Shown: one piece after another, positions 13,141 to 47,904 of the stretch
Layout: the number at the start of each line of letters is the position of its first letter
How positions within the stretch are numbered: the first letter of the stretch is position 1
Assembly (NCBI GenBank): GCA_964562925.1
Contig: CAZLVF010000004.1
Span: forward strand, 1,955 to 65,954
Source of the DNA: an uncultured Candidatus Bathyarchaeia archaeon
Lineage (GTDB): Archaea > Thermoproteota > Bathyarchaeia > 40CM-2-53-6 > CAVXDP01
Length of the DNA: 64,000 nt
Reading direction: 5' to 3'
Notes under the pieces: generated by a model
What the model saw: only the letters and a program-made list of their open reading frames with translations
Database searches by the model: none
What the model was told of the DNA's origin: nothing
Translations under genes and position numbers: made by a program

Positions 13141-14532
13141 TTGTTGGATAAGGCGCATCCATACCTTCCGACCGGCGTAGAAACGATAGAGAAAGATATG
13201 ATGGCAGCCATCGGAATCAACAGCATCGAAGAACTCTTCAAGGACATACCCGACTCGGTCAGGTTGAATAGAAAACTAAAATTGCCAGGCATGATATCTG
13301 AGTTCGAAGTAAGGGAGAAAATCCGTAGGCTTCTAGAAAGAAATGTTTCAGGCCAAGATATGCCGATCTTTCTTGGCGGGGGAGTCTGGCCTCACTACGT
13401 CCCGGTCGTGGTAGACGAGATAGTTAACCGCTCAGAGTTCCTCACAACATACACACCCTACCAAGCCGAGGCCTCGCAGGGCATACTCCAAGCGTTCTTT
13501 GAATATCAAAGCATGATATGCGAGCTGACGGGGATGGATGCTGCCAACTGCTCCCTCTACGATTGGGCAAGTGCCGTTGGAGAAGCTGCCAGAGCGGCTG
13601 TTAGGGTGAATCATAGAAGCGAGATAATCTACCCTCACTACATCCATCCTGAGAGGCTTGGAACGCTAAGAACCTACGCGGAACCGGCAGGTATAGACAC
13701 GGTTGAGGTTGAACAAGACAAGAAGACCGGACAGATTATCCTAGAAGACTTGAAGAAGAAACTGACGGAGAAAACGGCGGCTGTATACATCGAGAACCCT
13801 TCATACCTAGGCTTTTTCGAAGAGGGTGTAGACGAGATCTCAGATCTGACACATAAGAACGAGTCCATACTGATAGTTGGAGTCGACCCGATATCGCTCG
13901 GAATCCTGAAGCCTCCCGGAGAATATGGAGCCGACATAGTTGTCGGCGAGGGACAACCACTGGGAAACGCGATGAACTACGGCGGCCCACTGATCGGGAT
14001 CTACGCATGCAATGGCGATAAGCTGCTTAGACAAATGCCTGGACGAATTGTCGGAATGACAACTACTACTGACGGAAAGCAGAGAGCCTACTGTATGGCC
14101 CTCTCAACCAGAGAGCAACACATTAGACGGGAGAAGGCCACATCAAATATATGCACGAATGAAGCGCTTTTGTCCGTGGCTGCCAGCGTCTACCTCTCAC
14201 TTCTTGGCCCTCATGGCCTCAAAGACCTCTGTACCACGATAGTAACAAAGTCTCATTACGCAATGAAGAGGCTAGGCGAGATACGTGGGATAAAGGCACC
14301 TGCCTTCGAGGCTTCCCATTTCAAAGAGTTTACGGTCAACTTTGACAAGGCGAAGATGAAGGCGAGAGATGTTCATCGAAAACTTCTCAAGGAAGGCGTT
14401 CATGGTGGCAAGATCATTAAGAACGAGTTCCCCGAATTGGGCGAGTCAGCATTATACTGTGTCACGGAAGTTCACTCGAAGAGCGACATCGATAAGTTGA
14501 CAGACGCTCTAAGAAAGATTGTGAGGGGTTAG
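13141..14532 (+). CDS. gcvPA: Glycine dehydrogenase (decarboxylating) subunit 1
   Basis: The N-terminus matches GcvPA (HPYLP...EELFKDIP); the size is typical. The called start codon is TTG. Confidence 0.85.
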   Translation: MLDKAHPYLPTGVETIEKDMMAAIGINSIEELFKDIPDSVRLNRKLKLPGMISEFEVREKIRRLLERNVSGQDMPIFLGGGVWPHYVPVVVDEIVNRSEFLTTYTPYQAEASQGILQAFFEYQSMICELTGMDAANCSLYDWASAVGEAARAAVRVNHRSEIIYPHYIHPERLGTLRTYAEPAGIDTVEVEQDKKTGQIILEDLKKKLTEKTAAVYIENPSYLGFFEEGVDEISDLTHKNESILIVGVDPISLGILKPPGEYGADIVVGEGQPLGNAMNYGGPLIGIYACNGDKLLRQMPGRIVGMTTTTDGKQRAYCMALSTREQHIRREKATSNICTNEALLSVAASVYLSLLGPHGLKDLCTTIVTKSHYAMKRLGEIRGIKAPAFEASHFKEFTVNFDKAKMKARDVHRKLLKEGVHGGKIIKNEFPELGESALYCVTEVHSKSDIDKLTDALRKIVRG

Positions 14533-14534
14533 CC

Positions 14535-16067
14535 ATGTCATTTCAACAAGCAAGATGGAACGAAGAGACGATCTTTGAGAGGTCAGCGACTGGTAAGGTT
14601 GGTTACGTAGCTCCAAAGCCCGATCCAGAAGAGATTGAGGCTATTGGCGACCCTACCCGGCTTGTTCCGAAGAAGCTTCTCAGAGAGAAACCTCCTCTCC
14701 TACCGGAAGTCTCAGAGGTCGAGGTGATGAGACACTACACCCGCCTCTCACAGCAGACGTATGCCGTGACCTTGGGCACGTATCCGCTGGGAAGCTGCAC
14801 CATGAAGTATGACCCGAAGGTCTGCGACGTTGTCGCGGCGACTTCTAAGCTTCAGCTTCTTCATCCATACCAAGATGCGTCCACGGTCCAAGGCATACTC
14901 CAAATACTGTACGAGCTCTCAGAGTTCTTGGCTGAGATAACTGGCACGACCAAGGTCTCGCTTCAACCCTCGGCCGGCGCGCATGGAGAGTTCACCGGGA
15001 CCATGATAATCAGAGCCTACCACAAATACAAGGGCGAGTTGGATAAACGTAGAGACATAATCATCCCAGACTCGGCGCATGGGACGAACCCCGCGAGCAC
15101 GGTCATGGCAGGTTTCAATGTGGTTGAGGTGCCATCCAACCCCGCCGACGGAACCGTAGATGTTGAGGCGCTAAGGTCGACGGTGGGACCTCGAACAGCT
15201 GGACTCATGATCACAAACCCGAACACACTTGGAGTCTTCGAAAAGAATATTGTAGAAATCTCCAAGATCACGCACGAGGCTGGAGGACTACTATACTACG
15301 ACGGAGCCAATATGAACGCTATCCTCGGAAAAAGCAGACCTGGCGACATGGGTTTCGATATAGTACATGTCAACACGCATAAGACGTTGGGCACCCCCCA
15401 TGGGGGAGGGGGGCCTGGCGCAGGTCCGGTAGGAGTCGTCGCAAGCCTTGAGAAGTTCCTGCCTGTGCCCACTGTTGAGTATGATGGAAAAAGATACTAT
15501 CTGGACTATGAGAGGCCCCACAGCATAGGAAAAATAAAGGGTTTCTATGGAAATATCAGTGTTCTTCTCAGAAGCTACGCTTACATACTAGCCTTGGGCA
15601 CGGAAGGCCTTAGGAGAGTGGCTGAGCTCTCGACGTTAAACGCGAACTACATCTGTAGGAGAGTCCTGAAGTCGAAAGGTTACACGTTGCCGTATGGACC
15701 GGAGAACCCGAGAAAGCATGAGTCCGTGATCAGTGCCGAAGAGATGTCGAGGGAAACAGGGGTTAGAGCGCTCAACGTCTCAAAGAGCCTCCTAGACGAT
15801 GGCCTCCATGCACCAACAAACTACTTTCCACTTATTGTGCATGAAGCATTGATGATCGAACCAACCGAGAGCGAGAGCAAGGAAGAACTCGACAAGTTCA
15901 TTGACTCCATGATCCGCATAAGCCAAGAAGCCTACAGCAACCCTGAGAAGGTCTTGAGTGCGCCGCAACACACAACAGTTACTAAGGTCGATGAAGTCAA
16001 AGCGTCGCATCCAAAGACGCTCTGCATAAACTGGAAAACATGCAGGCTCAGGTCGGAGGAGACCTAG
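14535..16067 (+). CDS. gcvPB: Glycine dehydrogenase (decarboxylating) subunit 2
   Basis: PLP-enzyme core with an HVNTHKT-type Lys motif and a Gly-rich HGGGGPGAGP loop. It sits immediately downstream of gcvPA. Confidence 0.85.
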   Translation: MSFQQARWNEETIFERSATGKVGYVAPKPDPEEIEAIGDPTRLVPKKLLREKPPLLPEVSEVEVMRHYTRLSQQTYAVTLGTYPLGSCTMKYDPKVCDVVAATSKLQLLHPYQDASTVQGILQILYELSEFLAEITGTTKVSLQPSAGAHGEFTGTMIIRAYHKYKGELDKRRDIIIPDSAHGTNPASTVMAGFNVVEVPSNPADGTVDVEALRSTVGPRTAGLMITNPNTLGVFEKNIVEISKITHEAGGLLYYDGANMNAILGKSRPGDMGFDIVHVNTHKTLGTPHGGGGPGAGPVGVVASLEKFLPVPTVEYDGKRYYLDYERPHSIGKIKGFYGNISVLLRSYAYILALGTEGLRRVAELSTLNANYICRRVLKSKGYTLPYGPENPRKHESVISAEEMSRETGVRALNVSKSLLDDGLHAPTNYFPLIVHEALMIEPTESESKEELDKFIDSMIRISQEAYSNPEKVLSAPQHTTVTKVDEVKASHPKTLCINWKTCRLRSEET

Positions 16068-17796: not shown

Positions 17797-18073
17797 ACGA
17801 AGCGCAGACACGCTCAACGCTACCATGAAACTTGTCGAAAAGATCTGCCGTGGCTTCCCGAAGTATACACGATGGCGTCTTTGTCAGGAAATTGTAGGCT
17901 GTTCAGTTTATACATTAATCGTTTATGGTATTTCAATTGTATTTCTGTTTAATTACCAAGAGGTATATACACTCAGGCGACTCTATCTGGGTCCCACGTC
18001 GATCGGGACTATTCTGAGGTGTGGAACAATAATCCAGACGTCACGCGCGACCCGTTATGGTTTCGAGAATGTA

Positions 18074-19138
18074 GTGTGTTACGACTTGCTCAGATCAACA
18101 TTCTCGAGAGTTCGTGTTGTCGGCGTTGGAGGAGCTGGGAATAACATAGTCAATAAGCTTATGGAAGCTGGCGTGAGCGGAGCCCAGTGTGTAGCTGTTA
18201 ACACCGATCGCAGACACCTTGAGGCTGTTCGCGCTCATCAGAAGCTTCTGGTTGGTGCAAAGGTTGCTTCGGGCCTTGGTGCCTATGGTGATCCTGAGAT
18301 CGGGAGGAGAGCTGTTGAGGAATCGTTCGAGAGGATCGCCCCTATTTTCTGGGATGTGGACTTGGCTCTGATAGTGGCTGGTATGGGCGGGGGCACTGGA
18401 ACCGGGGCGGCTCCGTTGATAGCCGAGTTGGCTCGACAGAGCGGCACCGTGGTTGCAGGCATTGTGACTATGCCTTTTGAGAGTGCGAAGAGAGAGCGGA
18501 TGCTGGCTCTCCAGGGATTGGAGGCCATGAGCAGAACATGCGACACAACCCTCGTCATCGACAACAATCGACCCATCGAAACGATGCCCGGAATGGTTTC
18601 TCAAGCTGCCCTGCCATTGGCTGATAGTATCTTGGTCAACGTTTTGAAAGGCCTCTCAGAAACCGTTTCAACAAGAAGCCTCGTGAGAACAGAGCTTCGT
18701 GACGTAAAGAGTATTTTGAAGAGAGGTGGCATAGCGTTGGCAGGCCTCGGCGAGTCTGATTCCATATTCAGGGTTGAAGAGGCTGTTAGGAACGCAATCC
18801 AGTCGCCCTTCCTCGACGTAGACGGCAGGACCGCGAGTGGTGCCCTAGTTTACGTCACAGGAGATTCCTCCATGCTAACTTCCGAGGCTGCGCGCGTCGC
18901 AGAGGTCGTTGGTGAGATGTTACCGGTCGAAGCGCCCCTCATATGGGGCGCGCGAGTGGATCCGTCGCTTTGCTCCACCATGCGTGTGACGCTTGTCCTG
19001 ACAGGCTTGGACTACTGGCAGCAATATGTCGGAGGCTATCGAAGGATGCCCCTTGGCATCTACAACATGGAACCGGAAGTTGAGAAAGACCAGAGCCTAG
19101 ACATCGATCTTGATCTAGACCAGATCGAGTCAGAGTAA
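18074..19138 (+). CDS. ftsZ: Cell division GTPase FtsZ. The ORF-track start at 17825 is probably an artefact. The true start is likely a GTG or TTG near 18074–18086.
   Basis: GVGGAGNN, NTD, and the tubulin signature GMGGGTGTGAAP are all present, with an acidic C-terminal tail. The upstream ~250 nt is AT-rich, looks like a promoter, and has no FtsZ homology. Confidence 0.75.
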   Translation: MCYDLLRSTFSRVRVVGVGGAGNNIVNKLMEAGVSGAQCVAVNTDRRHLEAVRAHQKLLVGAKVASGLGAYGDPEIGRRAVEESFERIAPIFWDVDLALIVAGMGGGTGTGAAPLIAELARQSGTVVAGIVTMPFESAKRERMLALQGLEAMSRTCDTTLVIDNNRPIETMPGMVSQAALPLADSILVNVLKGLSETVSTRSLVRTELRDVKSILKRGGIALAGLGESDSIFRVEEAVRNAIQSPFLDVDGRTASGALVYVTGDSSMLTSEAARVAEVVGEMLPVEAPLIWGARVDPSLCSTMRVTLVLTGLDYWQQYVGGYRRMPLGIYNMEPEVEKDQSLDIDLDLDQIESE

Positions 19139-19335
19139 GGTCGCATGCTGATCGCAATCTCTCCCGCCGGCTAAGCTGGCCAGCCTCTGATAGCGAAATA
19201 CGGAAATTGGCAGCTCGCTCTCCGCTTGGAAAGCCTATTCCAAGAACTGACCGAAAGAGTTTATTACATCCAGTCAGCGTCTAAAGTCGCAAGACTTCAA
19301 ATCTTGCGTGTCAAAACTGACTGGAGCCTAGAGAC

Positions 19336-19797
19336 TTGGGATTGGTCAACTGGGCTAGGCGTAAGAGCCCCTGGCTCGTCCATTTCAATACAGGGGGATG
19401 CAACGCCTGTGATATTGAGGTATTAGCCGCTCTGATGCCTCGTTACGATCTGGAACGGTTTGGTGCCATACTAAAGGGGAGCCCGAGGCACGCGGACGTT
19501 CTAGTTGTCACGGGACCGGTGAATATGCAGAACAGGGATAGAATAATCAGGATATACGAACAGATGCCTTCCCCAAAGTTTGTCGTCTCGGTCGGTAACT
19601 GCTGTAATAGCTCAGGAGTCTACAGAGGCGCCTACAACGTGTACCCTGGTCTAGATTCTGTAATCCCGGTCGACGCCTATGTCTATGGCTGCCCGCCGAA
19701 ACCTGAGGCGATAATCCACGGCGTCGCGGCACTGCTATCAAAGATAAAAGAAGCAGGGCAACCCCCTAAGGAAACGACTCAGGAGGTGACCGCGTAG
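19336..19797 (+). CDS. [NiFe] hydrogenase small subunit, group-4 / NuoB-like
   Basis: The proximal-cluster ligand pattern is GGCNACD ... GNCC ... GCPP. Confidence 0.7.
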   Translation: MGLVNWARRKSPWLVHFNTGGCNACDIEVLAALMPRYDLERFGAILKGSPRHADVLVVTGPVNMQNRDRIIRIYEQMPSPKFVVSVGNCCNSSGVYRGAYNVYPGLDSVIPVDAYVYGCPPKPEAIIHGVAALLSKIKEAGQPPKETTQEVTA

Positions 19798-19798
19798 G

Positions 19799-20980
19799 AT
19801 GTCGTCAAGTTTTAGCATTATCGTTGGACCTCAGCACCCTGCACTAAAAGAACCGGAGAGCTTCAAGTTTACGGTTGACGGAGAGAATGTGGTGAAGGCC
19901 GAGGTTCGTATAGGATACGCGCACAAAGGCATCGAGAAGCTGGCTGAAACCAAGAACTACATTCAGAACATACCACTGATGGAGCGGATCTGCGGGATAT
20001 GCAATGTCGCTCACACAATCTGTTACTGCCAGAATGTCGAGTATCTTTATGAAAAGGAGATTCCACGGCGTGCAGAATACATCAGGGTCGTCATAGAAGA
20101 ACTTAACAGGATACACAGTCACCTCCTCTGGATAGGTGTCCTTGGACACGAGGTTGGCTTCGACACTCTCTTTATGTATCTTTGGAGAGACCGTGAAGTC
20201 GTCATGGATCTTATAGAGCTCCTGACGGGGAACAGAGTCTCGACCGCACTGATGACGATTGGAGGGGTCAGGCGAGACATCACCTCTGAGATAGCCCAGA
20301 AACTGAGGAAAGGAATGGATATTCTCGAGGAAAGAACAAGATACTACAAGAAGGTTGTGACAGATGAACGCTCATTACTGCAAAGAGCGGTGGGTGTGGG
20401 TAGGCTTACACCTGCCGAGGCGATAAAACATTCAGCCGTTGGACCGACTCTTAGAGCGTCAGGAATAAGATCTGACGTTAGAAGCGATGATCCGTACGCG
20501 GCTCATGATGAGATTCCATTCAACGTCATCACTCATGGTTCCTGCGACATGTTCGGAAGGGTCGTCGTCAGAGTCGACGAGACGATTGAAGCCATAAACC
20601 AGGTACGATACTGCCTCGACCAAATGCCCGACGGCCCGATCAGAACTCGGTTACCCAACACGCCGCCCAGAGGAGAATCGGTCAGCCGAGTGGAAGCTCC
20701 AAGGGGCGAAGATATCCACTACGTGAAGTCCAATGGCACGGACAAACCGGAAAGGTACAAGGTTCGGGCGCCCACCCTAGGAAATCTCTCAGCGCTTGTA
20801 GAGATGTTGACTTCAAAGGAGGACTACCAGGTGCACATCGCAGATATACCTGTCGTTCTGGCCGGCATAGACCCGTGCATGTGCTGCATGGATCGAACCG
20901 CTCGGTTTGTCGAACCTTCGAGAGAGAAAGAGTGGATCTGGACCTGGGAACAGCTCAAGAAGTACACTGAGAGGATGTGA
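19799..20980 (+). CDS. [NiFe] hydrogenase large subunit, group-4 / NuoD-like, with both Ni-binding motifs
   Basis: The N-terminal L1 motif RICGICNVAH and the C-terminal L2 motif DPCMCCMDR are both intact. This is unlike complex I NuoD, which lacks these cysteines. Confidence 0.75.
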   Translation: MSSSFSIIVGPQHPALKEPESFKFTVDGENVVKAEVRIGYAHKGIEKLAETKNYIQNIPLMERICGICNVAHTICYCQNVEYLYEKEIPRRAEYIRVVIEELNRIHSHLLWIGVLGHEVGFDTLFMYLWRDREVVMDLIELLTGNRVSTALMTIGGVRRDITSEIAQKLRKGMDILEERTRYYKKVVTDERSLLQRAVGVGRLTPAEAIKHSAVGPTLRASGIRSDVRSDDPYAAHDEIPFNVITHGSCDMFGRVVVRVDETIEAINQVRYCLDQMPDGPIRTRLPNTPPRGESVSRVEAPRGEDIHYVKSNGTDKPERYKVRAPTLGNLSALVEMLTSKEDYQVHIADIPVVLAGIDPCMCCMDRTARFVEPSREKEWIWTWEQLKKYTERM

Positions 20981-21333
20981 AACCCATGTCCATGACTCCA
21001 GAGGTGTACAGGAACCTATTCAAGAAGAGAGCGACAATCCTCTATCCATTCAAGGAGAGAGAACTCGTCCCAGTTCCGAAAGGGCTTAGAGGTAAACTGG
21101 CCTTCAATCTTGAAAGATGCATAGGATGCAGCATGTGCTTCCGCTCATGCCCCTCAGAAACGGTTGAGATGATCGATGACGAGACAAAGAAACGCCCAAA
21201 GAGACCGATCTTCTACCTTGACCGATGCACATTTTGCGCACAATGCGAAGAGGTCTGCCCAACCCGCGCTATAGAGATGACCTTGAACTTCGAGCTTGCA
21301 GGCTTTGATAGAAAGCAGACCCTGCTTAAGTGA
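20977..21333 (+). CDS. 2x[4Fe-4S] ferredoxin subunit (NuoI/EchF-like)
   Basis: Two clusters: CIGCSMCFRSCP and CTFCAQCEEVCP. It overlaps the large subunit by 4 bp. Confidence 0.75.
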   Translation: MKPMSMTPEVYRNLFKKRATILYPFKERELVPVPKGLRGKLAFNLERCIGCSMCFRSCPSETVEMIDDETKKRPKRPIFYLDRCTFCAQCEEVCPTRAIEMTLNFELAGFDRKQTLLK

Positions 21334-21372
21334 GGAAACGAGAGCAGAAAGAGCTCCGAACCAACGTACAGA

Positions 21373-22467
21373 CTAATCGGGAACAGTCACGGAGGAATGG
21401 GATATATACTTGGCCTCTCTCCCCTTCTTCCTAGACGAGATTTCCCTGACCAGAGATAGTCCATCCCCTGCAATAGGCTTTGCTTCTATAATGTTTTTCT
21501 CAACAGCGCTCCTAACCAGCCTCTCACCTTTCTCTGTCCGGACTAGTACCACGCACCAACCATCCGGAGCGCCGTCCGCACCTACCGATATGTCGGCCAG
21601 TTCTGATGTGAAGTCATCGCATTTACTGCACGCTTCAAGCAGGCATGGTTCGATCTCTTTGGTGGGGCTCTCGAGCACCACTCTTTCTCCTTGATAGACT
21701 CTGAGGCGGCCGTCCCTAGCCTGCAAACTCATCTTTGTGGTCGCCTGCAAATCAATATTCTTCCGAGCCTTCAAGTAGTCAATTACAAGTTTGTTGTGAT
21801 GATAACTGTTGTTGCAGAACAATCCGATCGCTAGTTCCACCCATTCTCCCAACTTACGAGGACCGAACGTTGAGGTGGAGACTCTCCTCAGCGCCTGAAT
21901 CTGGCAAGGCAAACCTACGAAGGCGAGTTTGGAATCTGGGTAGCCGAGCGCCGCGTCTTTCACCTTCGACAGCGAAGCGCTTGCACTACATTTTGTTCCA
22001 GCAGCAGCAAGCAGTTGTTCAAGACGCTTCATCTCTATCGGCACAGGTCTCCAAGGTTTCTCATCTGTTCTAGTGGTTCCGACAGCGTAGTCCACAAGGC
22101 CTGTGTCGATCGCGTGAGCTAGAAGTGATGTAACGACTCCGCCGTTCTGCGCAACCTTCAAGACCGCTTCGTCCTTTGACCGGGCGACGTGGGATTCCCG
22201 AATGATTCCGAGGTCCGTCTCCTCTTTCGATCTTGCACGCTTGAACATCCATGTCTCGATCCCGTCTCTCGGAAGCTCGACGCGTGGGCATGAATAGTAA
22301 CAGAGTTGACAGAGGACGCAGATGCCTTTGATGGTGGGTTTCTCATCTTCAGTTGGAAACAGAACGTTAACGGGACAGGCGGCTATGCAGGCTCCGCAGA
22401 ACATGCAGAGGTTACTCTGCACGACCTCCTTGACCAGAGTCCCGAATATCTTTAGTGGCTGGGACAA
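21373..22467 (-). CDS. Coenzyme F420 hydrogenase/dehydrogenase beta-subunit family protein (FpoF/FrhB-like) with an N-terminal 2x[4Fe-4S] domain
   Basis: The N-terminus has CMFCGACIAACP and CVLCQLCYYSCP. A FrhB-like body follows, with C-terminal Cys (CSKCDD). Confidence 0.6.
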   Translation of the reverse strand: MSQPLKIFGTLVKEVVQSNLCMFCGACIAACPVNVLFPTEDEKPTIKGICVLCQLCYYSCPRVELPRDGIETWMFKRARSKEETDLGIIRESHVARSKDEAVLKVAQNGGVVTSLLAHAIDTGLVDYAVGTTRTDEKPWRPVPIEMKRLEQLLAAAGTKCSASASLSKVKDAALGYPDSKLAFVGLPCQIQALRRVSTSTFGPRKLGEWVELAIGLFCNNSYHHNKLVIDYLKARKNIDLQATTKMSLQARDGRLRVYQGERVVLESPTKEIEPCLLEACSKCDDFTSELADISVGADGAPDGWCVVLVRTEKGERLVRSAVEKNIIEAKPIAGDGLSLVREISSRKKGREAKYISHSSVTVPD

Positions 22468-22564: not shown

Positions 22565-24496
22565 CTACCTGAAGTATGGAATCACGTCTTTCGATATCAA
22601 GTAGATGGCATCCGCTTTGTTGGGGCCGATCGGTGACCCTACCACTATCTGCGTTACACCGGTCCTCAATATCTCGTCTATCTTGTTCACGATGTCGCTC
22701 GGCCTCCCACATATCGCGAACGAGTCAAGCATCTGGTCTGTTACGGCTTTGAAGGCGTCCCCGAACTTGCCTTTCTCCAAGAAGGCTAGGATTTGTGATG
22801 CGTTCTCCGCAGGGATATCATGCCTCTTTAGAACCTCGGCTGGGCTTCCAGCAACTATGAAAGCGACAACCTCCTTGGCTTTTTCTCTGGCTTTGATCTT
22901 GTCGTAATCAACGGATACGCTCGCGTAGGCTACAACGTCTATCTTGGACTTGTCCCTTCCACTCGCCTGAAGACCCTTGCTTATCTGCTCGGCGGCGAAC
23001 TTGAAGTCACGTGGGTGCGCCGCGTTTATCAATACGCCATCAGCTATCGTCCCGGCAAGTTCAAGAAGCTTGGGCCCTTGCGCGCCGATATAAACCGGTG
23101 GTGACCTTTTCGGCTTGTAGTTCAACCTCGCCCCTTTCAACGAGAAGACCTTCCCGTCGAACTTCACGGTCTCCCCACGCCAAAGCCGTTTTATGATCTC
23201 GACGCATTCCCTCATGGCCGCGAGAGGCTTCCCAGAGGCTATACCCAGAGATCTCAGGGTTGTCACGTCACCTGGGCCTAGGCCTAGTATCGCTCGGTTT
23301 TCTGAAAGTTCATCTAGTGTCGCAACGGCGGAGGCGGTCCATGCGGGGTTTATGTGAAACGGGTTTGTCACGCCAGTTCCTATTGTGATCGTCTTTGTAT
23401 TAAGCGCGATAGATGTGAGGAGTATGTAGATGTTCCGGTTGTTGTAGTGGTCTGTAACCCATACGTTGTCGAAGCCTCCATTCTCAGCTGCCTTTACCCA
23501 GTTGACTATCTTGTCAACAGCTTTGTCTGGAACGAACTCTATTCCAAACTTGGGTTTGGCTACTCCCTCTGGAAGACGTGCTCCCTTCTCTAAGAAAAGC
23601 GACTTCGAAATCTCGTAGGCTACGGCATGGTCGAACACGCCTTTCGTTAGGTCGATGGCACGCCTAAAAAGCTCGGCCTCGATCGTATTCTTAGATGCTC
23701 CTATAGCCAGGGCGCCTATCCCACGAACGCCAGGCGTGAACTCGATGCCATCGTCTGTCGGCTTTAGGCCCTCGACCCCTGTTGGCGGAACAGCATTCAC
23801 GTCTCCAACGACCTTGCATTTTGAACCGTAGCTTTTCAGTGTGTCCAATGATAGAAGCTGGACGCCAGCTGTCCCCGCCACGATGATAATATCAGAATCT
23901 TGAATCGCTTTCCCTATCTCGTCCTGTGTCTGACCTCTAGCACCTTGAACCAGAGTTGTCTTCAGTTCCTGGTTTATCTTATCGACTAATGCCCTGGCCT
24001 TCTCGAGGCTTCTCGAGGTTGCTGTTACAGGGATGCTTTCCGACGCAAGCAGGTAGGTTGCTATCTTTCCTACCGGCCCAGTGGCAGCCAGAACCGTTGC
24101 CTTCGCACCCTTCAAGCTTGGATTATGCTTGCGGTAGAGAGCGAGAACCCTTGCCACAACAGCTGAGCCAGTGGTTGATGCTCCCCTCGGATCGACTATG
24201 ATTCCCAACTCGAAAGGTGGGAACATCGCTTTTCTGGCTTCGCTGAGTATCTGGTCTGCTTTCTCGACATCATATCCACCGATGAAGATCTTTGTTTTCT
24301 TGGCGCCTTCCGATCCACGTGGAAACATCGCGTCTTGAACAATCTTTCTGGTATCGCTTGACTCCACATTACTATAGTAGACTATCTGAGCCTCTGGATA
24401 CAGATAGGAAGCCGTCAATAGATCAAAGGCACTCGCATGTTTATCGGTATCTAGGAAGATTATGGTATTTCTTAGAGAACCTGCCATCACAAACAC
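22565..24496 (-). CDS. Fusion protein: N-terminal MtdA-like NAD(P)-dependent methylene-H4MPT/H4F dehydrogenase + C-terminal Mer (F420-dependent 5,10-methylene-H4MPT reductase, LLM family)
   Basis: The N-terminal ~300 aa match MtdA in recalled segments (FLDTD..SAFD, IFIGGYDVEKADQ, VVARVLALYRK, ATVLAATGPVG). The C-terminal ~330 aa match Mer (KFGIEFVP...TDHYNNRNIY...GTGVTNPF...SPIGPNKAD). Confidence 0.7.
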   Translation of the reverse strand: MFVMAGSLRNTIIFLDTDKHASAFDLLTASYLYPEAQIVYYSNVESSDTRKIVQDAMFPRGSEGAKKTKIFIGGYDVEKADQILSEARKAMFPPFELGIIVDPRGASTTGSAVVARVLALYRKHNPSLKGAKATVLAATGPVGKIATYLLASESIPVTATSRSLEKARALVDKINQELKTTLVQGARGQTQDEIGKAIQDSDIIIVAGTAGVQLLSLDTLKSYGSKCKVVGDVNAVPPTGVEGLKPTDDGIEFTPGVRGIGALAIGASKNTIEAELFRRAIDLTKGVFDHAVAYEISKSLFLEKGARLPEGVAKPKFGIEFVPDKAVDKIVNWVKAAENGGFDNVWVTDHYNNRNIYILLTSIALNTKTITIGTGVTNPFHINPAWTASAVATLDELSENRAILGLGPGDVTTLRSLGIASGKPLAAMRECVEIIKRLWRGETVKFDGKVFSLKGARLNYKPKRSPPVYIGAQGPKLLELAGTIADGVLINAAHPRDFKFAAEQISKGLQASGRDKSKIDVVAYASVSVDYDKIKAREKAKEVVAFIVAGSPAEVLKRHDIPAENASQILAFLEKGKFGDAFKAVTDQMLDSFAICGRPSDIVNKIDEILRTGVTQIVVGSPIGPNKADAIYLISKDVIPYFR

Positions 24497-45112: not shown

Positions 45113-45373
45113 TTGAGTGTGAACGAAATCGTTCAAGAAGAGAATCCTTCACTTCCAAAGATAGTCATCTTGGGGAATCTTTGTAAGGGATGCGGGATAT
45201 GTATCGAGTTCTGCCCTTTCAAGATTTTAAAGACGGGAAGCCGCATGACGAGGAAGGGTATCTTTCCTCCTGAGGTTATCAATCAGAGCAAATGCACAGC
45301 TTGCCGAATCTGCCAGCACTTTTGCCCCGACTTTGCAATATTCATCGTCGGGAGGTCTCAGATTTCGCCTTAG
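45113..45373 (+). CDS. 2-oxoacid:ferredoxin oxidoreductase delta subunit (2x[4Fe-4S])
   Basis: CKGCGICIEFCP and CTACRICQHFCP. Confidence 0.75.
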   Translation: MSVNEIVQEENPSLPKIVILGNLCKGCGICIEFCPFKILKTGSRMTRKGIFPPEVINQSKCTACRICQHFCPDFAIFIVGRSQISP

Positions 45374-45393
45374 CAAAACCCGGAAGATACTTT

Positions 45394-46509
45394 ATGCAGG
45401 GAAATGAGGCGTGCGCCCTAGGTGCTGTCGCGGCAGGTTGCCGATTCTTCGCGTTCTACCCCATCACTCCAGCAGGCGAGATTGCCGAGAAGATGTCTCA
45501 TCTTCTCCCAAAGGTCCGAGGCGTCTACATTCAGATGGAGGACGAGATCGCATCCATCGGGAGTGTGATCGGCGCATCGTGGACTGGTTTGAAAGCTATG
45601 ACCGCCACCTCTGGTCCTGGCTTCAGCCTCATGCAGGAGAACATCGGATACGCGGTGATGACCGAGACGCCTTGCGTGATTGTGGATGTGCAGCGGGCAG
45701 GCCCTAGCACCGGAATCGTCTCTGCTCCGATGCAAGGAGATGTAGCTCAAGCCAGACACGGCAGTCACGGCGAGTATGAGATTATCGCTCTTGCACCATC
45801 GTCTGCTCAAGAGATGTTCGACTTAACGATTCGAGCATTCAACCTCTCTGAGCAGTTCCGAACGCCGGTGATCGTGCTCGCCGACGAGACGGTTGGCCAC
45901 ATGCGTGAGGAGGTCATCATTCCCGAGAAAAGGTCGCTCACGATCGTCAATAGAAAGGTTCCATCGAGTAGTGAAGAGGCGTCACGAAGCTTCCTGAGCC
46001 CTTCGGTCGCTCCAATGCCAGCGTTGGGAACGGGCTTCTCAGTTCACGTTACCGGATCCGCACATGACGAATATGGAAAACGAGTATCTGGCTCACCTGA
46101 CGCGATCGACAGGATAGTCAGAACAATCAGTGAAAAGATACAAGTGCACACGGAAAAGATCTCGAACTTTGAGATGGTGATGTTGGACGACGCAGACATA
46201 GCACTCGTCGCGTACGGAAGCTGTTCTAGAACAGCAGAGTTCGTTGTGAAGCGGGCGCATGAGAAAGGAGTGCACCTCGGTCTGCTCAGACTGATCGAGC
46301 TATGGCCCTTCCCTAGAAAGGGTGTGCAGGAAGCGCTGAAGCATGTCGAGAAGATCGTTGTGTTAGAGAATAACCTTGGCCAAGTACTCCCCGAGATTGA
46401 GAGAGCAATGGCAGGCCATGCAGAGATAACGTTTCTCCCTCCCGAAACGATCGGAACCCTGCACAGACCCGACTATGTTTTAGAGCATGTGATGAAGGTC
46501 GCCATGTAG
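45394..46509 (+). CDS. 2-oxoacid:ferredoxin oxidoreductase alpha subunit. The ORF-track start at 45292 overlaps delta. The ATG at 45394 is the likelier start.
   Basis: MQGNEACALGAVAAGCRFFAFYPITP matches the Por/Kor/Vor alpha N-terminus. Confidence 0.75.
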   Translation: MQGNEACALGAVAAGCRFFAFYPITPAGEIAEKMSHLLPKVRGVYIQMEDEIASIGSVIGASWTGLKAMTATSGPGFSLMQENIGYAVMTETPCVIVDVQRAGPSTGIVSAPMQGDVAQARHGSHGEYEIIALAPSSAQEMFDLTIRAFNLSEQFRTPVIVLADETVGHMREEVIIPEKRSLTIVNRKVPSSSEEASRSFLSPSVAPMPALGTGFSVHVTGSAHDEYGKRVSGSPDAIDRIVRTISEKIQVHTEKISNFEMVMLDDADIALVAYGSCSRTAEFVVKRAHEKGVHLGLLRLIELWPFPRKGVQEALKHVEKIVVLENNLGQVLPEIERAMAGHAEITFLPPETIGTLHRPDYVLEHVMKVAM

Positions 46510-46511
46510 TC

Positions 46512-47348
46512 TTGCCAACTCATCAGTCGCACCCATTGGCCAAGTACCTGCGTCCCGGCGCCCAGCCGCACTTGCATTGCTCAGGCTGTGGCAACGGAAT
46601 CATTGCACAATGCTTTCTTAGAGCCGTCGACGAAGCCGAGATCCCGACGAGAAAGATTGTTTGCGTCGCGGGAATTGGATGCAGCGGTTGGATTCCCAGC
46701 CCCTTGTTCAACATGGATACGCTTCATGTGACTCATGGCAGACCGATCGCTTTCGCTACCGGCGTTAAGCTCAGCAACCCAAGTTTAGAGGTTGTAGTCT
46801 TTACGGGCAACGGAGACTGCTCCGCAATCGGAGGTAATCACCTCATACATGCTGCTCGTAGAAACATCGGGATCAAAGTGATCTGCGTCAACAACATGAT
46901 CTATGGCATGACAGGTGGAGAGGTAGCTCCCACGACACCCCGAGGGATCAAAACAACGACTACTCCCTTTGGCAACTTGGAGAGGCCATTCGACCTTTCG
47001 AGACTGGTCGCGGCGGCTGGAGGAACCTACGTTGTAAGATGGACCACGTACCATGTCGCCGGACTAGTTGCCTCGATGAAGAAGGCTTTGAAGAGGAGAG
47101 GCTTCGCTTTTGTTGAGGTCATATCACAGTGCCCCATCCACTACGGGCGTAGGGCAGGGTTCTCAAATCCGGTCGACATGATGAGGTGGTTTCAGAAGCA
47201 ATCTGTCACAATTGAGCGGGCAAGTGAAATGAGCGAACAAGAGCTTTCCGGAAAATTTGTTGTGGGAGAGTTCGTAAACATCGAGGCGCCGGAGCTGACC
47301 GGGCTATACGCAGAGCTATTTGAGGCAACCAATCGTGAGTCGAACTGA
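46512..47348 (+). CDS. 2-oxoacid:ferredoxin oxidoreductase beta subunit (TPP-binding)
   Basis: HCSGCGNG...GIGCSGW motifs. Confidence 0.75.
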   Translation: MPTHQSHPLAKYLRPGAQPHLHCSGCGNGIIAQCFLRAVDEAEIPTRKIVCVAGIGCSGWIPSPLFNMDTLHVTHGRPIAFATGVKLSNPSLEVVVFTGNGDCSAIGGNHLIHAARRNIGIKVICVNNMIYGMTGGEVAPTTPRGIKTTTTPFGNLERPFDLSRLVAAAGGTYVVRWTTYHVAGLVASMKKALKRRGFAFVEVISQCPIHYGRRAGFSNPVDMMRWFQKQSVTIERASEMSEQELSGKFVVGEFVNIEAPELTGLYAELFEATNRESN

Positions 47349-47904
47349 AGTCAGGCTCGCAGGGTTCGGCGGCCAAGGCTTGATCCTAGCCGGAATCCTA
47401 CTAGGCCACGCTGCAGCTGCTCATGAAGGGAAGAAGGCTGTTCAGACCCAGTCCTATGGATCAGAGACTAGAGGGGGAGCAGCTCGCTCAGAGGTCGTAA
47501 TCTCAAATGAGAGGATAGACTATCCCAAGGTGATTTCGGCTGACATCACAATTACAATGTCGCAAGAAGCGTTTGACATGTACGCAAGTGATATACGGCC
47601 CGGACGCAAGCTGTTCATTGATGCCGACTTGGTCTCCAGCGTGCCAGCCGACCTTGAAAGCGTGCTTTGTCGAATTCCGGCGACAAAGATAGCGGCGGAG
47701 GAGCTGAAGAAGACGCTGGTTGCCAACATGGTCATGCTTGGGGCGGTGGTCGCAGTAACCAAGGTAGTTGAACTTGCCAGCTTGGAGAAGAGTATCAGGG
47801 AACTGGCTCCCAAAGGATCGATCGACCTGAACATACGAGCCTTGGAGCGAGGGTTCGAGTGGGCAAATGCGCATCTTAGAAGCGAAATGGGTCGAGGTGG
47901 ATGA
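47320..47904 (+). CDS. 2-oxoacid:ferredoxin oxidoreductase gamma subunit
   Basis: LAGFGGQG motif; about 190 aa. Confidence 0.7.
   Translation: MRQPIVSRTEVRLAGFGGQGLILAGILLGHAAAAHEGKKAVQTQSYGSETRGGAARSEVVISNERIDYPKVISADITITMSQEAFDMYASDIRPGRKLFIDADLVSSVPADLESVLCRIPATKIAAEELKKTLVANMVMLGAVVAVTKVVELASLEKSIRELAPKGSIDLNIRALERGFEWANAHLRSEMGRGG

What the first reader, a model, noticed from the sequence alone, without database searches (positions are those of the whole stretch)
19336..22467. A three-subunit group-4-type [NiFe] hydrogenase module with no membrane subunits, facing an FpoF/FrhB-like F420 subunit
The large subunit (19799..20980) keeps both Ni-binding cysteine pairs, RICGICNVAH and DPCMCCMDR. 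That argues for a real hydrogenase rather than a complex-I/Fpo NuoD-type subunit. It is flanked only by a NuoB-like small subunit and a NuoI-like 2x[4Fe-4S] protein. No NuoH/L/M/N-type antiporter or membrane-anchor genes lie nearby: upstream is ftsZ, downstream is the convergent FpoF-like gene. Group-4 hydrogenases are membrane complexes by definition. So this is either a soluble, stripped-down Q-module-like hydrogenase or a module whose membrane partners are encoded elsewhere. The convergent neighbour has the FpoF architecture (2x[4Fe-4S] + FrhB domain), which is the F420H2-input subunit of Fpo/Fqo. Together this suggests an unusual F420- or ferredoxin-linked soluble hydrogenase assembled from complex-I-like parts.
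Basis: partly seen in the sequence, partly recalled or inferred. Interest (0 to 1): 0.7.

Follow-up and report, generated by a model that had tools for sequence, protein, structure and literature searches.

The report
Half of a split membrane hydrogenase
The three genes encode the metal-bearing subunits of a known kind of membrane-bound, complex-I-like hydrogen enzyme of Bathyarchaeia; the eight missing subunit genes lie elsewhere in the genome, so this is probably not a new soluble enzyme.

Summary
Window 19336-21333 (+) encodes a NuoB-like small subunit, a NuoD-like large subunit that keeps both [NiFe] cysteine pairs, and a NuoI-like 2x[4Fe-4S] protein. An FrhB/FpoF-like gene converges 39 bp downstream. 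No Nuo-type membrane, hyp or hycI gene lies anywhere in the 64 kb.

The "soluble, stripped-down hydrogenase" reading does not hold. Relatives at 53-67% identity sit in colinear A-B-C-D-H-I-J-K-L-M-N clusters, the Fpo-like "Hfo" group-4g hydrogenase of Loh et al. 2021. A scan with the NuoH-like subunit found many loci of the form HypE-A-C-H-J-J'-K-L-M-N(-HycI) that lack B, D and I. These are the exact complement of the window's B-D-I, which lacks C. In two sister MAGs (large subunit 89% and 93% identical, same synteny) both halves occur on different contigs.

The module is therefore the cofactor-bearing half of a split 11-subunit membrane-bound hydrogenase. One point remains of interest. The FrhB-like gene follows the last Hfo gene in every B-D-I locus that has downstream sequence, and also in the L031-type full clusters and in two of three 8-gene clusters. 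Its closest solved relatives are plug-in F420 reductase subunits. An F420 link is plausible but untested.

The parts
19252..19266 (+). Possible archaeal promoter: a purine-rich BRE-like stretch followed by TTTATTA (19260-19266), about 70 nt upstream of the B start codon
   Evidence: Read directly from the sequence. This is inference only; there are no transcript data.
19323..19326 (+). GGAG ribosome-binding site, 9 nt upstream of the TTG start of the small subunit
   Evidence: Sequence. The N-terminus MGLVNWARRKSPW is conserved in relatives.
19336..19797 (+). HfoB: NuoB-like [NiFe]-hydrogenase small subunit, 153 aa, one [4Fe-4S] cluster. It has a hydrophilic C-terminal tail of about 14 aa that is specific to B-D-I-type loci.
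   Evidence: It is 80-82% identical to the B subunits of complete 11-gene clusters (L029, L031).
19799..20980 (+). HfoD: group-4 [NiFe]-hydrogenase large subunit, 393 aa. L1 CGICNVAH is at nt 19988-20011 and the L2-like DPCMCCMDR at nt 20870-20896. A 27-aa C-terminal extension (nt 20897-20977) aligns with the part of HycE beyond its DR motif.
20986..21333 (+). HfoI: NuoI-like 2x[4Fe-4S] ferredoxin-type subunit, 115 aa from the conserved ATG. The mechanical ORF starts at a GTG at 20977, overlapping the D stop codon.
21373..22467 (-). FrhB/FpoF-like F420 oxidoreductase module, 364 aa: an N-terminal 2x[4Fe-4S] domain followed by an FrhB domain (FAD plus [4Fe-4S]). It converges on HfoI with a 39-bp gap and lies downstream of Mtd-Mer on its own strand.
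   Evidence: Best solved relatives are 8RIU_B and 8RJA_E. Its position next to the Hfo peripheral-arm genes is conserved.
22565..24496 (-). Context gene: a fusion of an MtdA-like methylene-H4MPT dehydrogenase (Mpt_N plus an NAD(P)-binding domain) with the F420-dependent methylene-H4MPT reductase Mer. It lies 97 bp upstream of the FrhB-like gene on the same strand.
   Evidence: The Mer equivalog TIGR03555 scores 444.5 bits against a cutoff of 348.7.

Best explanation
The three genes encode subunits B, D and I of an 11-subunit, membrane-bound, Fpo/complex-I-like [NiFe]-hydrogenase of the Hfo type (HydDB subgroup 4g according to Loh et al. 2021) in a Bathyarchaeia archaeon. B, D and I are exactly the cofactor-bearing subunits.

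The gene set is split into two loci. The other eight genes are A, C, H, J, J', K and the three antiporter-like genes L, M and N. They form a second locus flanked by the maturation genes hypE and hycI.

Inferred mechanism:
- Reduced ferredoxin from 2-oxoacid:ferredoxin oxidoreductases delivers electrons to the two [4Fe-4S] clusters of I.
- Electrons pass to the [4Fe-4S] cluster of B and then to the [NiFe] site of D, where protons are reduced to H2. The reverse direction, driven by the membrane potential, is also possible.
- The reaction is coupled through H/A/J/K and L/M/N to ion translocation.
- After nickel insertion the large subunit is probably matured by HycI-type removal of its 27-residue C-terminal extension.

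The convergent FrhB-like flavoprotein is a plug-in F420 reductase or oxidase. It most likely exchanges electrons with the same FeS chain or with the same ferredoxin pool, which would tie the F420 pool used by the adjacent Mer to this hydrogenase.

What is shown: gene content, cofactor ligands, homology, the split, and co-occurrence of both halves in sister MAGs.
What is inferred: the physical complex, the electron donor, the direction of the reaction, and any docking of the FrhB-like protein.
For: 1. Identity of the subunits. Both cysteine pairs of D align with MbhL and HycE. The L1 regex is matched. D scores higher against MbhL and HycE (263 bits each) than against Nqo4 (213 bits).

2. Relation to complete clusters. 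Relatives at 53-67% large-subunit identity lie in colinear A-B-C-D-H-I-J-K-L-M-N clusters. This is the organisation published as Hfo (PMC7886697). A neighbour-joining tree nests the B-D-I clade among them.

3. The complement exists. A scan with the NuoH-like protein of L031 returned 80 loci. At least 15 of them are A-C-H-J-J'-K-L-M-N with no B, D or I. The window has B, D and I and no C, so 3 + 8 genes give the 11 subunits with no gap and no overlap.

4. Both halves occur in the same genomes. P0128 (H subunit) is on CAZJUU010000049.1, and L007 is on CAZJUU010000011.1 (large subunit 89% identical, same synteny from GcvP to MetRS). P0122 is on CAZXJU-type contig CAYXJU010000061.1, and L024 is on CAYXJU010000033.1 (93% identical).

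5. The arm belongs to a [NiFe] enzyme. HypE lies directly upstream of A in the orphan-arm loci (TIGR02124, 382.6 bits against a cutoff of 251.6). A HycI homologue converges downstream in L047 and L060.

6. The proteins have not adapted to a soluble state. No hydrophobic-to-polar shift separates the B, D and I proteins of split loci from those of complete clusters. B is 80-82% identical to the B subunits of complete clusters.

7. Ferredoxin as partner. In the sister clade, a four-subunit 2-oxoacid:ferredoxin oxidoreductase operon lies directly upstream of B-C-D-I on the same strand. The window also carries such an enzyme at 45292-47904.
Against: - The second locus was found in two sister species, not in the window's own genome, which I could not retrieve.
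- MAG bins can combine contigs from different organisms.
- No biochemical data exist for any Hfo or group-4g enzyme.
- The strict L2 regex is not met, because Cys replaces [AGST] between the two ligand cysteines. Relatives in complete clusters share this.
- The trees are neighbour-joining only.
- A pool of free B-D-I, with or without the FrhB-like protein, acting in the cytoplasm cannot be excluded.
Confidence: 0.8

Rival explanations
1. This is a truly soluble three-subunit group-4-derived hydrogenase. It works alone or with the FrhB-like protein as a cytoplasmic F420- or ferredoxin-linked enzyme, an analogue of Frh built from complex-I-like parts.
For: - No membrane genes occur within 64 kb.
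- The B-D-I arrangement is conserved in at least seven species-level loci.
- The FrhB-like gene is always next to B-D-I and never next to the membrane-arm locus.
- The FrhB-like protein resembles plug-in F420 reductases that dock on FeS subunits of soluble enzymes.
Against: - A complementary membrane-arm locus that also carries the missing NuoC-like subunit exists, and it co-occurs with B-D-I in two sister MAGs.
- hypE and hycI flank that arm although it has no catalytic subunit.
- The surfaces of B, D and I show no adaptation to loss of partners.
- Subunit C, which is present in the solved MBH structure and in every complete or four-gene (B-C-D-I) cluster examined here, would be missing.
Confidence: 0.08
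2. The split Hfo explanation holds, but the FrhB-like protein is not a subunit of it. It acts on its own as a soluble ferredoxin:F420 oxidoreductase (as proposed for FqoF and FpoF), or with HdrA-MvhD, to make or use F420H2 for the Mtd-Mer enzyme with which it is probably co-transcribed.
For: - It is on the opposite strand from B-D-I and on the same strand as Mtd-Mer, 97 bp downstream of it.
- In L031-type clusters HdrC-HdrB-HdrA-MvhD lies upstream of the same operon.
- An FrhB-Hdr partnership has been proposed for Bathyarchaeia and Korarchaeia.
- Most complete Hfo clusters have no FrhB-like neighbour: 36 of the 51 loci with enough downstream sequence.
Against: - Adjacency to the last Hfo gene, with a 7-64 bp gap (1147 bp in L011), persists in three different cluster types and in neighbourhoods that are otherwise unrelated (L027 compared with the window).
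- After the split it stayed with the electron-transfer half.
- Mtd-Mer is its neighbour only in the window's own subclade.
Confidence: 0.45
3. The complex is a non-hydrogenase Fpo/Nuo-like respiratory complex, and the large subunit reduces a quinone, phenazine or other acceptor.
For: The highest NCBIfam scores are to NuoD and FpoD models (336 and 307 bits), and annotation pipelines often name it NuoD.
Against: - All those scores are below the curated cutoffs.
- All four Ni-ligand cysteines and the HycE-like C-terminal extension are conserved across the clade.
- HypE and HycI flank the arm, and Ni uptake genes with NikR lie next to sister clusters.
- Loh et al. found no methanophenazine biosynthesis genes in Bathy-6.
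Confidence: 0.03

Closest known systems
Hfo, the Fpo-like 11-subunit [NiFe]-hydrogenase of Bathyarchaeia (Loh, Herve and Brune 2021, PMC7886697; HydDB subgroup 4g; genomic prediction only)
   Same: - Same phylum-level host.
- Same 11 subunit types.
- The large subunit has L1 and L2 cysteines yet is closer to NuoD/FpoD than other hydrogenases are.
- Complete colinear clusters occur in relatives at 53-67% identity.
   Different: - The genes are split into B-D-I and (HypE)-A-C-H-J-J'-K-L-M-N-(HycI), whereas Hfo was described as a single Fpo-ordered cluster.
- An FpoF/FrhB-like gene lies next to the peripheral-arm genes, whereas Hfo was described as lacking FpoF and FpoO.
Membrane-bound hydrogenase MBH of Pyrococcus furiosus (6CFW, group 4d) and E. 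coli formate hydrogenlyase Hyd-3 (7Z0S, group 4a)
   Same: - The catalytic core of large subunit, small subunit and 2x[4Fe-4S] subunit is the same.
- Both cysteine pairs align.
- It has a HycE-like C-terminal extension.
- Ferredoxin- or FeS-fed proton reduction coupled to a membrane arm is the expected mechanism.
   Different: - The membrane arm has the complex-I/Fpo composition (A, H, J, K, L, M, N) rather than the Mrp-type module of MBH or the HycC/D arm of FHL.
- Identity is only about 40%.
F420H2 dehydrogenase Fpo/Fqo with its FpoF/FqoF input subunit
   Same: - The 11 core subunit types are the same.
- The neighbour has the FpoF architecture of a 2x[4Fe-4S] domain plus an FrhB domain.
   Different: - FpoD lacks the Ni-binding cysteines.
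- The window proteins score far below the FpoD and FpoF cutoffs (307 against 600 bits, and 133.5 against 475 bits).
- No methanophenazine is expected in this host.
Plug-in F420 reductase subunits of the CODH (zeta, 8RIU_B) and formylmethanofuran dehydrogenase (FwdI, 8RJA_E) of Ca. Ethanoperedens thermophilum (Lemaire et al. 2024, PMC11493965)
   Same: - They are the best solved relatives of the FrhB-like protein (E 5e-56 and 3.5e-45, aligned over nearly the full length).
- They have the same ferredoxin-domain plus F420-reductase-domain layout, which in those enzymes wires an FeS chain to F420.
   Different: - The host enzymes are different.
- Docking on a hydrogenase of this type has never been shown.
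Frh, the group-3a F420-reducing [NiFe]-hydrogenase (FrhABG)
   Same: If the FrhB-like protein docks, the overall chemistry would be the same: H2 exchanging electrons with F420 through a [NiFe] site, an FeS chain and FAD.
   Different: - The large and small subunits are group 4, not group 3a (FrhA model 60.5 bits against a cutoff of 392.5).
- The enzyme is membrane-bound.
- FrhB lacks the N-terminal ferredoxin domain.

Membership tests
Group 4 [NiFe]-hydrogenase (catalytic core) | L1 motif C[GS][ILV]C[AGNS]xxH in the large subunit | tested here: met
   CGICNVAH at residues 65-72. It aligns with the L1 of MbhL and HycE.
Group 4 [NiFe]-hydrogenase (catalytic core) | L2 motif [DE][PL]Cx[AGST]Cx[DE][RL] with the two C-terminal Ni-ligand cysteines | tested here: inconclusive
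   DPCMCCMDR has both ligand cysteines aligned with MbhL and HycE. The strict regex fails because Cys replaces [AGST]. Large subunits of complete clusters L017, L018 and L032 have the same CC.
Group 4 [NiFe]-hydrogenase (catalytic core) | Small subunit with four cysteines for the proximal [4Fe-4S] cluster, and a 2x[4Fe-4S] subunit | tested here: met
   B has C22, C25, C89/90 and C119. I has two CxxCxxCxxxCP motifs.
Group 4 [NiFe]-hydrogenase (catalytic core) | Association with NuoH-like and antiporter-like membrane subunits | tested here: met
   These genes are not in the window. They are on a second contig in two sister MAGs. For the window's own genome this is an inference.
Group 4 [NiFe]-hydrogenase (catalytic core) | Dedicated maturation: Hyp proteins and endopeptidase cleavage of a C-terminal extension | tested here: met
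   A 27-aa extension follows DPCMCCMDR and aligns with the corresponding C-terminal tail of HycE. HypE and HycI flank the arm locus or complete clusters in relatives. Cleavage itself is not testable here.
Hfo (Fpo-like 11-subunit hydrogenase, subgroup 4g) | The eleven subunits A, B, C, D, H, I, J, K, L, M, N | tested here: met
   B, D and I are in the window. A, C, H, J, J', K, L, M and N are in the complementary locus of sister MAGs.
Hfo (Fpo-like 11-subunit hydrogenase, subgroup 4g) | A single gene cluster in Fpo/Nuo order | tested here: not met
   The gene set is split into two loci. Relatives at 53-67% identity have the single cluster.
Hfo (Fpo-like 11-subunit hydrogenase, subgroup 4g) | HydDB assignment of the large subunit to subgroup 4g | not testable with these tools
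   HydDB is not available here. The assignment rests on homology to clusters of the published organisation.
Fpo/Fqo F420H2 dehydrogenase | FpoD without Ni ligands, and an FpoF equivalog | tested here: not met
   The Ni-ligand cysteines are present. FpoD model NF040602 scores 307 bits against a cutoff of 600. FpoF model NF040616 scores 133.5 bits against a cutoff of 475.
Frh (group 3a F420-reducing hydrogenase) | FrhA-type and FrhG-type hydrogenase subunits, and an FrhB equivalog | tested here: not met
   frhA TIGR03295 scores 60.5 bits against 392.5. FrhG scores 33.9 against 245.5. frhB TIGR03289 scores 187.7 against 331.5.
Plug-in F420 reductase modules (CODH zeta / FwdI type) | An N-terminal 2x[4Fe-4S] ferredoxin domain fused to an FrhB-type FAD/[4Fe-4S] domain | tested here: met
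   Two CxxCxxCxxxCP motifs occupy residues 21-60, followed by the FrhB N and C domains. The alignment with 8RIU_B covers nearly the full length. The architecture is described.
Plug-in F420 reductase modules (CODH zeta / FwdI type) | Physical docking on the FeS subunit of the partner enzyme | not testable with these tools
   Only conserved neighbourhood is available.

The most novel reading that the evidence does not exclude
The FrhB/FpoF-like protein is a real twelfth subunit that docks by its ferredoxin domain on subunit I. The complex would then be a membrane-bound, ion-coupled F420:H2 oxidoreductase, in effect an Fpo whose acceptor is the proton. It would supply or drain the F420H2 used by Mer, answering the open question of where Bathyarchaeia obtain F420H2 for the Wood-Ljungdahl pathway. 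A further possibility is that the separately encoded B-D-I(+F) unit also works detached from the arm as a cytoplasmic Frh analogue.
Probability: 0.25. Interest if true: 0.7.

Novelty: new member of a known kind. Interest (0 to 1): 0.35.

Why it matters
The result removes a tempting false lead. A group-4 hydrogenase "without membrane subunits" is here an effect of gene organisation, so operon-based annotation of Bathyarchaeia will miscall or miss this enzyme. One survey states that fpoBDHL were always present in the clusters it examined (PMC8407382).

The split is informative in itself. It separates the three cofactor-bearing subunits from the eight cofactor-free ones, which travel with hypE and hycI.

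The recurrent FrhB-like neighbour gives a concrete, testable candidate for the missing F420H2 source for Mer in bathyarchaeal acetogenesis. Loh et al. (2021) flagged that source as unclear.

Tried and rejected
1. Window artefact. I labelled every ORF of at least 80 aa by TM count, ran Pfam on the large and membrane ORFs, and ran tblastn with A, C, H, J, K, L, M, N, HypE, HycI and Hdr queries. None is present.

2. Surface adaptation to a soluble state. I looked for positions that are hydrophobic in complete-cluster proteins and polar in split or membrane-less ones. I found 1 in D (Y/P to P) and none in B or I. There is no signal, which in hindsight fits the split-operon answer.

3. Literature. 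Searches for a described soluble or membrane-less group-4 enzyme, or for NuoBCDI-only hydrogenases, found none.

4. A third same-MAG pairing. P0124 and P0138 turned out to lie in other assemblies (JBFOMZ01, JAWCKJ01, JAWCQS01). They give more orphan-arm examples but no new pairing.

5. The sister B-C-D-I loci downstream of a 2-oxoacid:ferredoxin oxidoreductase. I could not decide whether they have a membrane arm. No A-H-J... locus lacking C appeared among the 80 best H loci, but look-ups were exhausted.

6. Not attempted. HydDB and multimer modelling are unavailable. A sigma-70 promoter scan does not apply to archaea.


Full report
**1. Observation**

The ORF list shows a tight plus-strand gene triplet.
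- B: 19336-19797, TTG start, 153 aa.
- D: 19799-20980, 393 aa, one base after the B stop.
- I: 20977-21333. Its conserved ATG is at 20986, which is the start used by gene callers on identical metagenome contigs and is conserved in the alignment.

Pfam and NCBIfam assign B to NuoB/Oxidored_q6, D to Complex1_49kDa plus NiFeSe_Hases, and I to NuoI-like 2x[4Fe-4S] proteins. RICGICNVAH (residues 63-72) and DPCMCCMDR (residues 358-366) are present. In phmmer alignments they fall on the Ni-ligand cysteines of MbhL (6CFW_L, 3.2e-77) and HycE (7Z0S_E, 4e-77). D scores higher against these two than against Nqo4 (263 against 213 bits). Like HycE, D continues beyond the DR of L2, here by 27 residues.

A 364-aa FrhB-like protein with an N-terminal 2x[4Fe-4S] domain converges 39 bp downstream, at 21373-22467 on the minus strand. 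On its own strand it follows, after 97 bp, a fusion of an MtdA-like dehydrogenase with Mer.

No Nuo-type membrane subunit, NuoC, HypE, HycI or Hdr gene lies anywhere in the 64 kb.

**2. Organism and conservation**

The nearest named homologues of D come from Bathyarchaeia MAGs. The identical D protein occurs on 12 metagenome contigs from JGI, ENA and Logan, and the six shown have the same layout. GTDB MAGs at 85-93% D identity (L007, L008, L009, L024) share the synteny GcvP-ThiS-MiaB-FtsZ-B-D-I / FrhB-like-MtdMer-PHP-MetRS.

**3. A series of related clusters**

I labelled ORFs in 32 loci by blastp and TM count, and used the precomputed Pfam tables. The loci fall into five types.
- Complete A-B-C-D-H-I-J-K-L-M-N clusters at 53-67% D identity: L017-L020, L025, L029, L031, L032. 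This is the organisation published as Hfo, an Fpo-like 11-subunit hydrogenase whose D subunit HydDB places in subgroup 4g (PMC7886697).
- A-B-C-D-H-I-J-K without adjacent antiporter-like genes: L014-L016.
- A four-subunit 2-oxoacid:ferredoxin oxidoreductase operon followed directly by B-C-D-I, with CbiMQO and NikR downstream: L012, L013, L028, L030.
- B-D-I alone, in unrelated neighbourhoods: L010, L011, L027.
- The window type.

In a neighbour-joining tree of D, the B-D-I and B-C-D-I loci form one clade nested among complete clusters. At this stage the soluble reading looked attractive.

**4. The test that decided it**

If the membrane genes had merely moved, clusters with a membrane arm but no B, D or I should exist. 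I scanned the metagenome collection with the NuoH-like protein of L031 and labelled the 80 returned loci.

Most are complete clusters. At least 15 are not: L043, L044, L046, L047, L052-L055, L059-L062, L096, L104 and L110. These read A-C-H-J-J'-K-L-M-N with no B, D or I, although several kb of flank are available. This is the exact complement of the window's B-D-I, which uniquely lacks C.

The gene directly upstream of A is HypE (TIGR02124, 382.6 bits against a cutoff of 251.6). A HycI homologue converges downstream in L047 and L060. The arm is therefore linked to [NiFe] maturation although it carries no catalytic subunit.

The H proteins of these loci form a tight group, P0121-P0130, at 82-99% identity. 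Two of them tie the halves together.
- P0128 lies on CAZJUU010000049.1 (GCA_964549295.1). That is the same MAG as L007, on CAZJUU010000011.1.
- P0122 lies on CAYXJU010000061.1 (GCA_964464765.1). That is the same MAG as L024, on CAYXJU010000033.1.

Both halves therefore co-occur in two sister genomes. In a neighbour-joining tree of H, the orphan-arm loci form two groups close to the L031-type clusters. This parallels the two B-D-I subclades.

Two further results fit continued contact with C and H. There is no hydrophobic-to-polar shift in B, D or I of split loci. B is 80-82% identical to the B subunits of complete clusters.

**5. Most likely function**

The window encodes the three cofactor-bearing subunits of a split Hfo-type, membrane-bound hydrogenase.

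Ferredoxin is the most likely redox partner. A 2-oxoacid:ferredoxin oxidoreductase is fused in operon with the sister B-C-D-I genes, and another lies in the window at 45292-47904. Direction and ion stoichiometry are unknown, because no group-4g enzyme has been characterised. These steps are inferred from established knowledge of MBH, FHL and complex I.

**6. The FrhB-like neighbour**

It follows the last Hfo gene in three settings.
- Every B-D-I locus with downstream sequence: a 31-64 bp gap, or 1147 bp in L011, convergent.
- Two of the three 8-gene clusters: a 29-31 bp gap, convergent.
- The L031-type complete clusters: a 7 bp gap, co-directional, in the FpoF position.

It is never next to the orphan arm. 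Other synteny around it is not conserved (L027 compared with the window).

Its best solved relatives are the zeta subunit of CODH (8RIU_B) and FwdI (8RJA_E) of Ca. Ethanoperedens. In both, a ferredoxin domain plus an F420-reductase domain is plugged onto an FeS chain, making the enzyme F420-reducing.

Loh et al. state that the source of F420H2 for Mer in Bathyarchaeia is unclear and that only FrhB, not FrhA or FrhG, is encoded. A link between hydrogenase, FrhB-like protein, F420 and Mer is therefore a reasonable hypothesis.

There are reasons for caution.
- Most complete clusters lack this neighbour.
- In L031, Hdr-MvhD genes lie in the same operon, and an Hdr-FrhB partnership has been proposed.
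- From my own knowledge of the standard potentials (not a tool result), the F420/H2 couple offers little free energy for a three-antiporter arm.

I rate docking on Hfo at about 0.25-0.3.

**7. Comparison and novelty**

The enzyme is a member of the Hfo/group-4g kind. It differs in gene organisation, being split in two loci with maturation genes beside the arm, and in having an FpoF-like neighbour that the original description reported as absent.

I found no paper describing the B-D-I / A-C-H... split. One survey states that fpoBDHL were always present in the clusters examined. A closed Bathy-6 genome lists dispersed Fpo/ECH gene sets without comment.

The finding as proposed, a membrane-less group-4 hydrogenase, is not supported. 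What remains is a modest organisational variant and a testable F420 hypothesis.

**8. Limits**

- The second locus was shown in sister species, not in the window's own genome.
- MAG binning can err.
- The trees are neighbour-joining only.
- HydDB and multimer modelling were unavailable.

Noticed in passing
L012 5928-11534; L013 5415-11015; L028 5896-11533; L030 3940-9540: In a sister clade (D 69-72% identical), rubrerythrin and a four-subunit 2-oxoacid:ferredoxin oxidoreductase (gamma-delta-alpha-beta) lie directly upstream of B-C-D-I on the same strand. In L013, L028 and L030, CbiM/Q/O-type nickel or cobalt transporter genes and NikR lie downstream. Because C is kept here, the orphan A-C-H... 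arm is not its complement, and no A-H-J... locus lacking C was seen among 80 H loci. This may be a truly membrane-less 2-oxoacid-to-H2 module, or an alternative head for a shared arm.
   Followed up: partly
window 22565-24496 (-): A single 643-aa protein fuses an MtdA-like NAD(P)-type methylene-H4MPT dehydrogenase (Mpt_N) to the F420-dependent Mer. These are two consecutive steps of the H4MPT methyl branch. The fusion is conserved in L007 and L008 at 82% identity.
   Followed up: partly
L014 1173-5534; L015 8716-13321; L016 7156-11840: Hot-spring MAGs labelled Nitrososphaerales carry A-B-C-D-H-I-J-K clusters with no antiporter-like L, M or N genes within the available flanks. In L014 and L015 the FrhB-like gene converges right after the cluster. 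Their D has an N-terminal extension of about 15 aa.
   Followed up: no
L031 1037-16783 (also L033, L038, L042): HdrC-HdrB-HdrA (1092 aa)-MvhD lie directly upstream of a complete A..N cluster on the same strand. The FrhB-like gene starts 7 bp after N. This looks like a possible Hdr-Hfo-F420 supercluster, reminiscent of the Hdr-bearing group-4 complexes reported for Asgard archaea.
   Followed up: no
L043 138-1187; L047 5901-6974 and 14895-15461; L060 5999-7054 and 13421-13930; L113 1993-3042: The orphan membrane-arm loci are flanked by hypE upstream and, in L047 and L060, by a convergent hycI-like peptidase gene downstream. The maturation genes travel with the cofactor-free half of the split gene set.
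   Followed up: yes
window 20870-20896: The L2 motif reads DPCMCCMDR. An extra cysteine sits between the two ligand cysteines, where [AGST] is canonical. All B-D-I and B-C-D-I loci share DPCMCCMDR. The complete clusters L017, L018 and L032 have DPC[IL]CCT.
   Followed up: partly
window 19799-20980, residue 43: The otherwise invariant HRG (GYxHRGxEK) is HKG in all 11 B-D-I and B-C-D-I large subunits and HRG in all 11 complete or 8-gene clusters compared. It is one of only 10 positions with disjoint residue sets.
   Followed up: no
window 17825-19138 (+): The FtsZ ORF is 437 aa, with an N-terminal stretch of about 90 aa that includes a hydrophobic segment. The mechanically called FtsZ ORFs of relatives are 368-406 aa (L008 only 274 aa). 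The true start may lie further downstream.
   Followed up: no
window 45149-47904 (+): A 2-oxoacid:ferredoxin oxidoreductase (alpha 45292-46509, beta 46512-47348, gamma 47320-47904), with a weak ferredoxin-like match just upstream (45149-45340). It is a likely source of reduced ferredoxin in this organism.
   Followed up: partly
window 13141-16067 (+): The two subunits of the glycine-cleavage P protein (GcvPA and GcvPB), followed by a ThiS-like protein and a MiaB-like radical-SAM enzyme. This block is syntenic in all close relatives.
   Followed up: no
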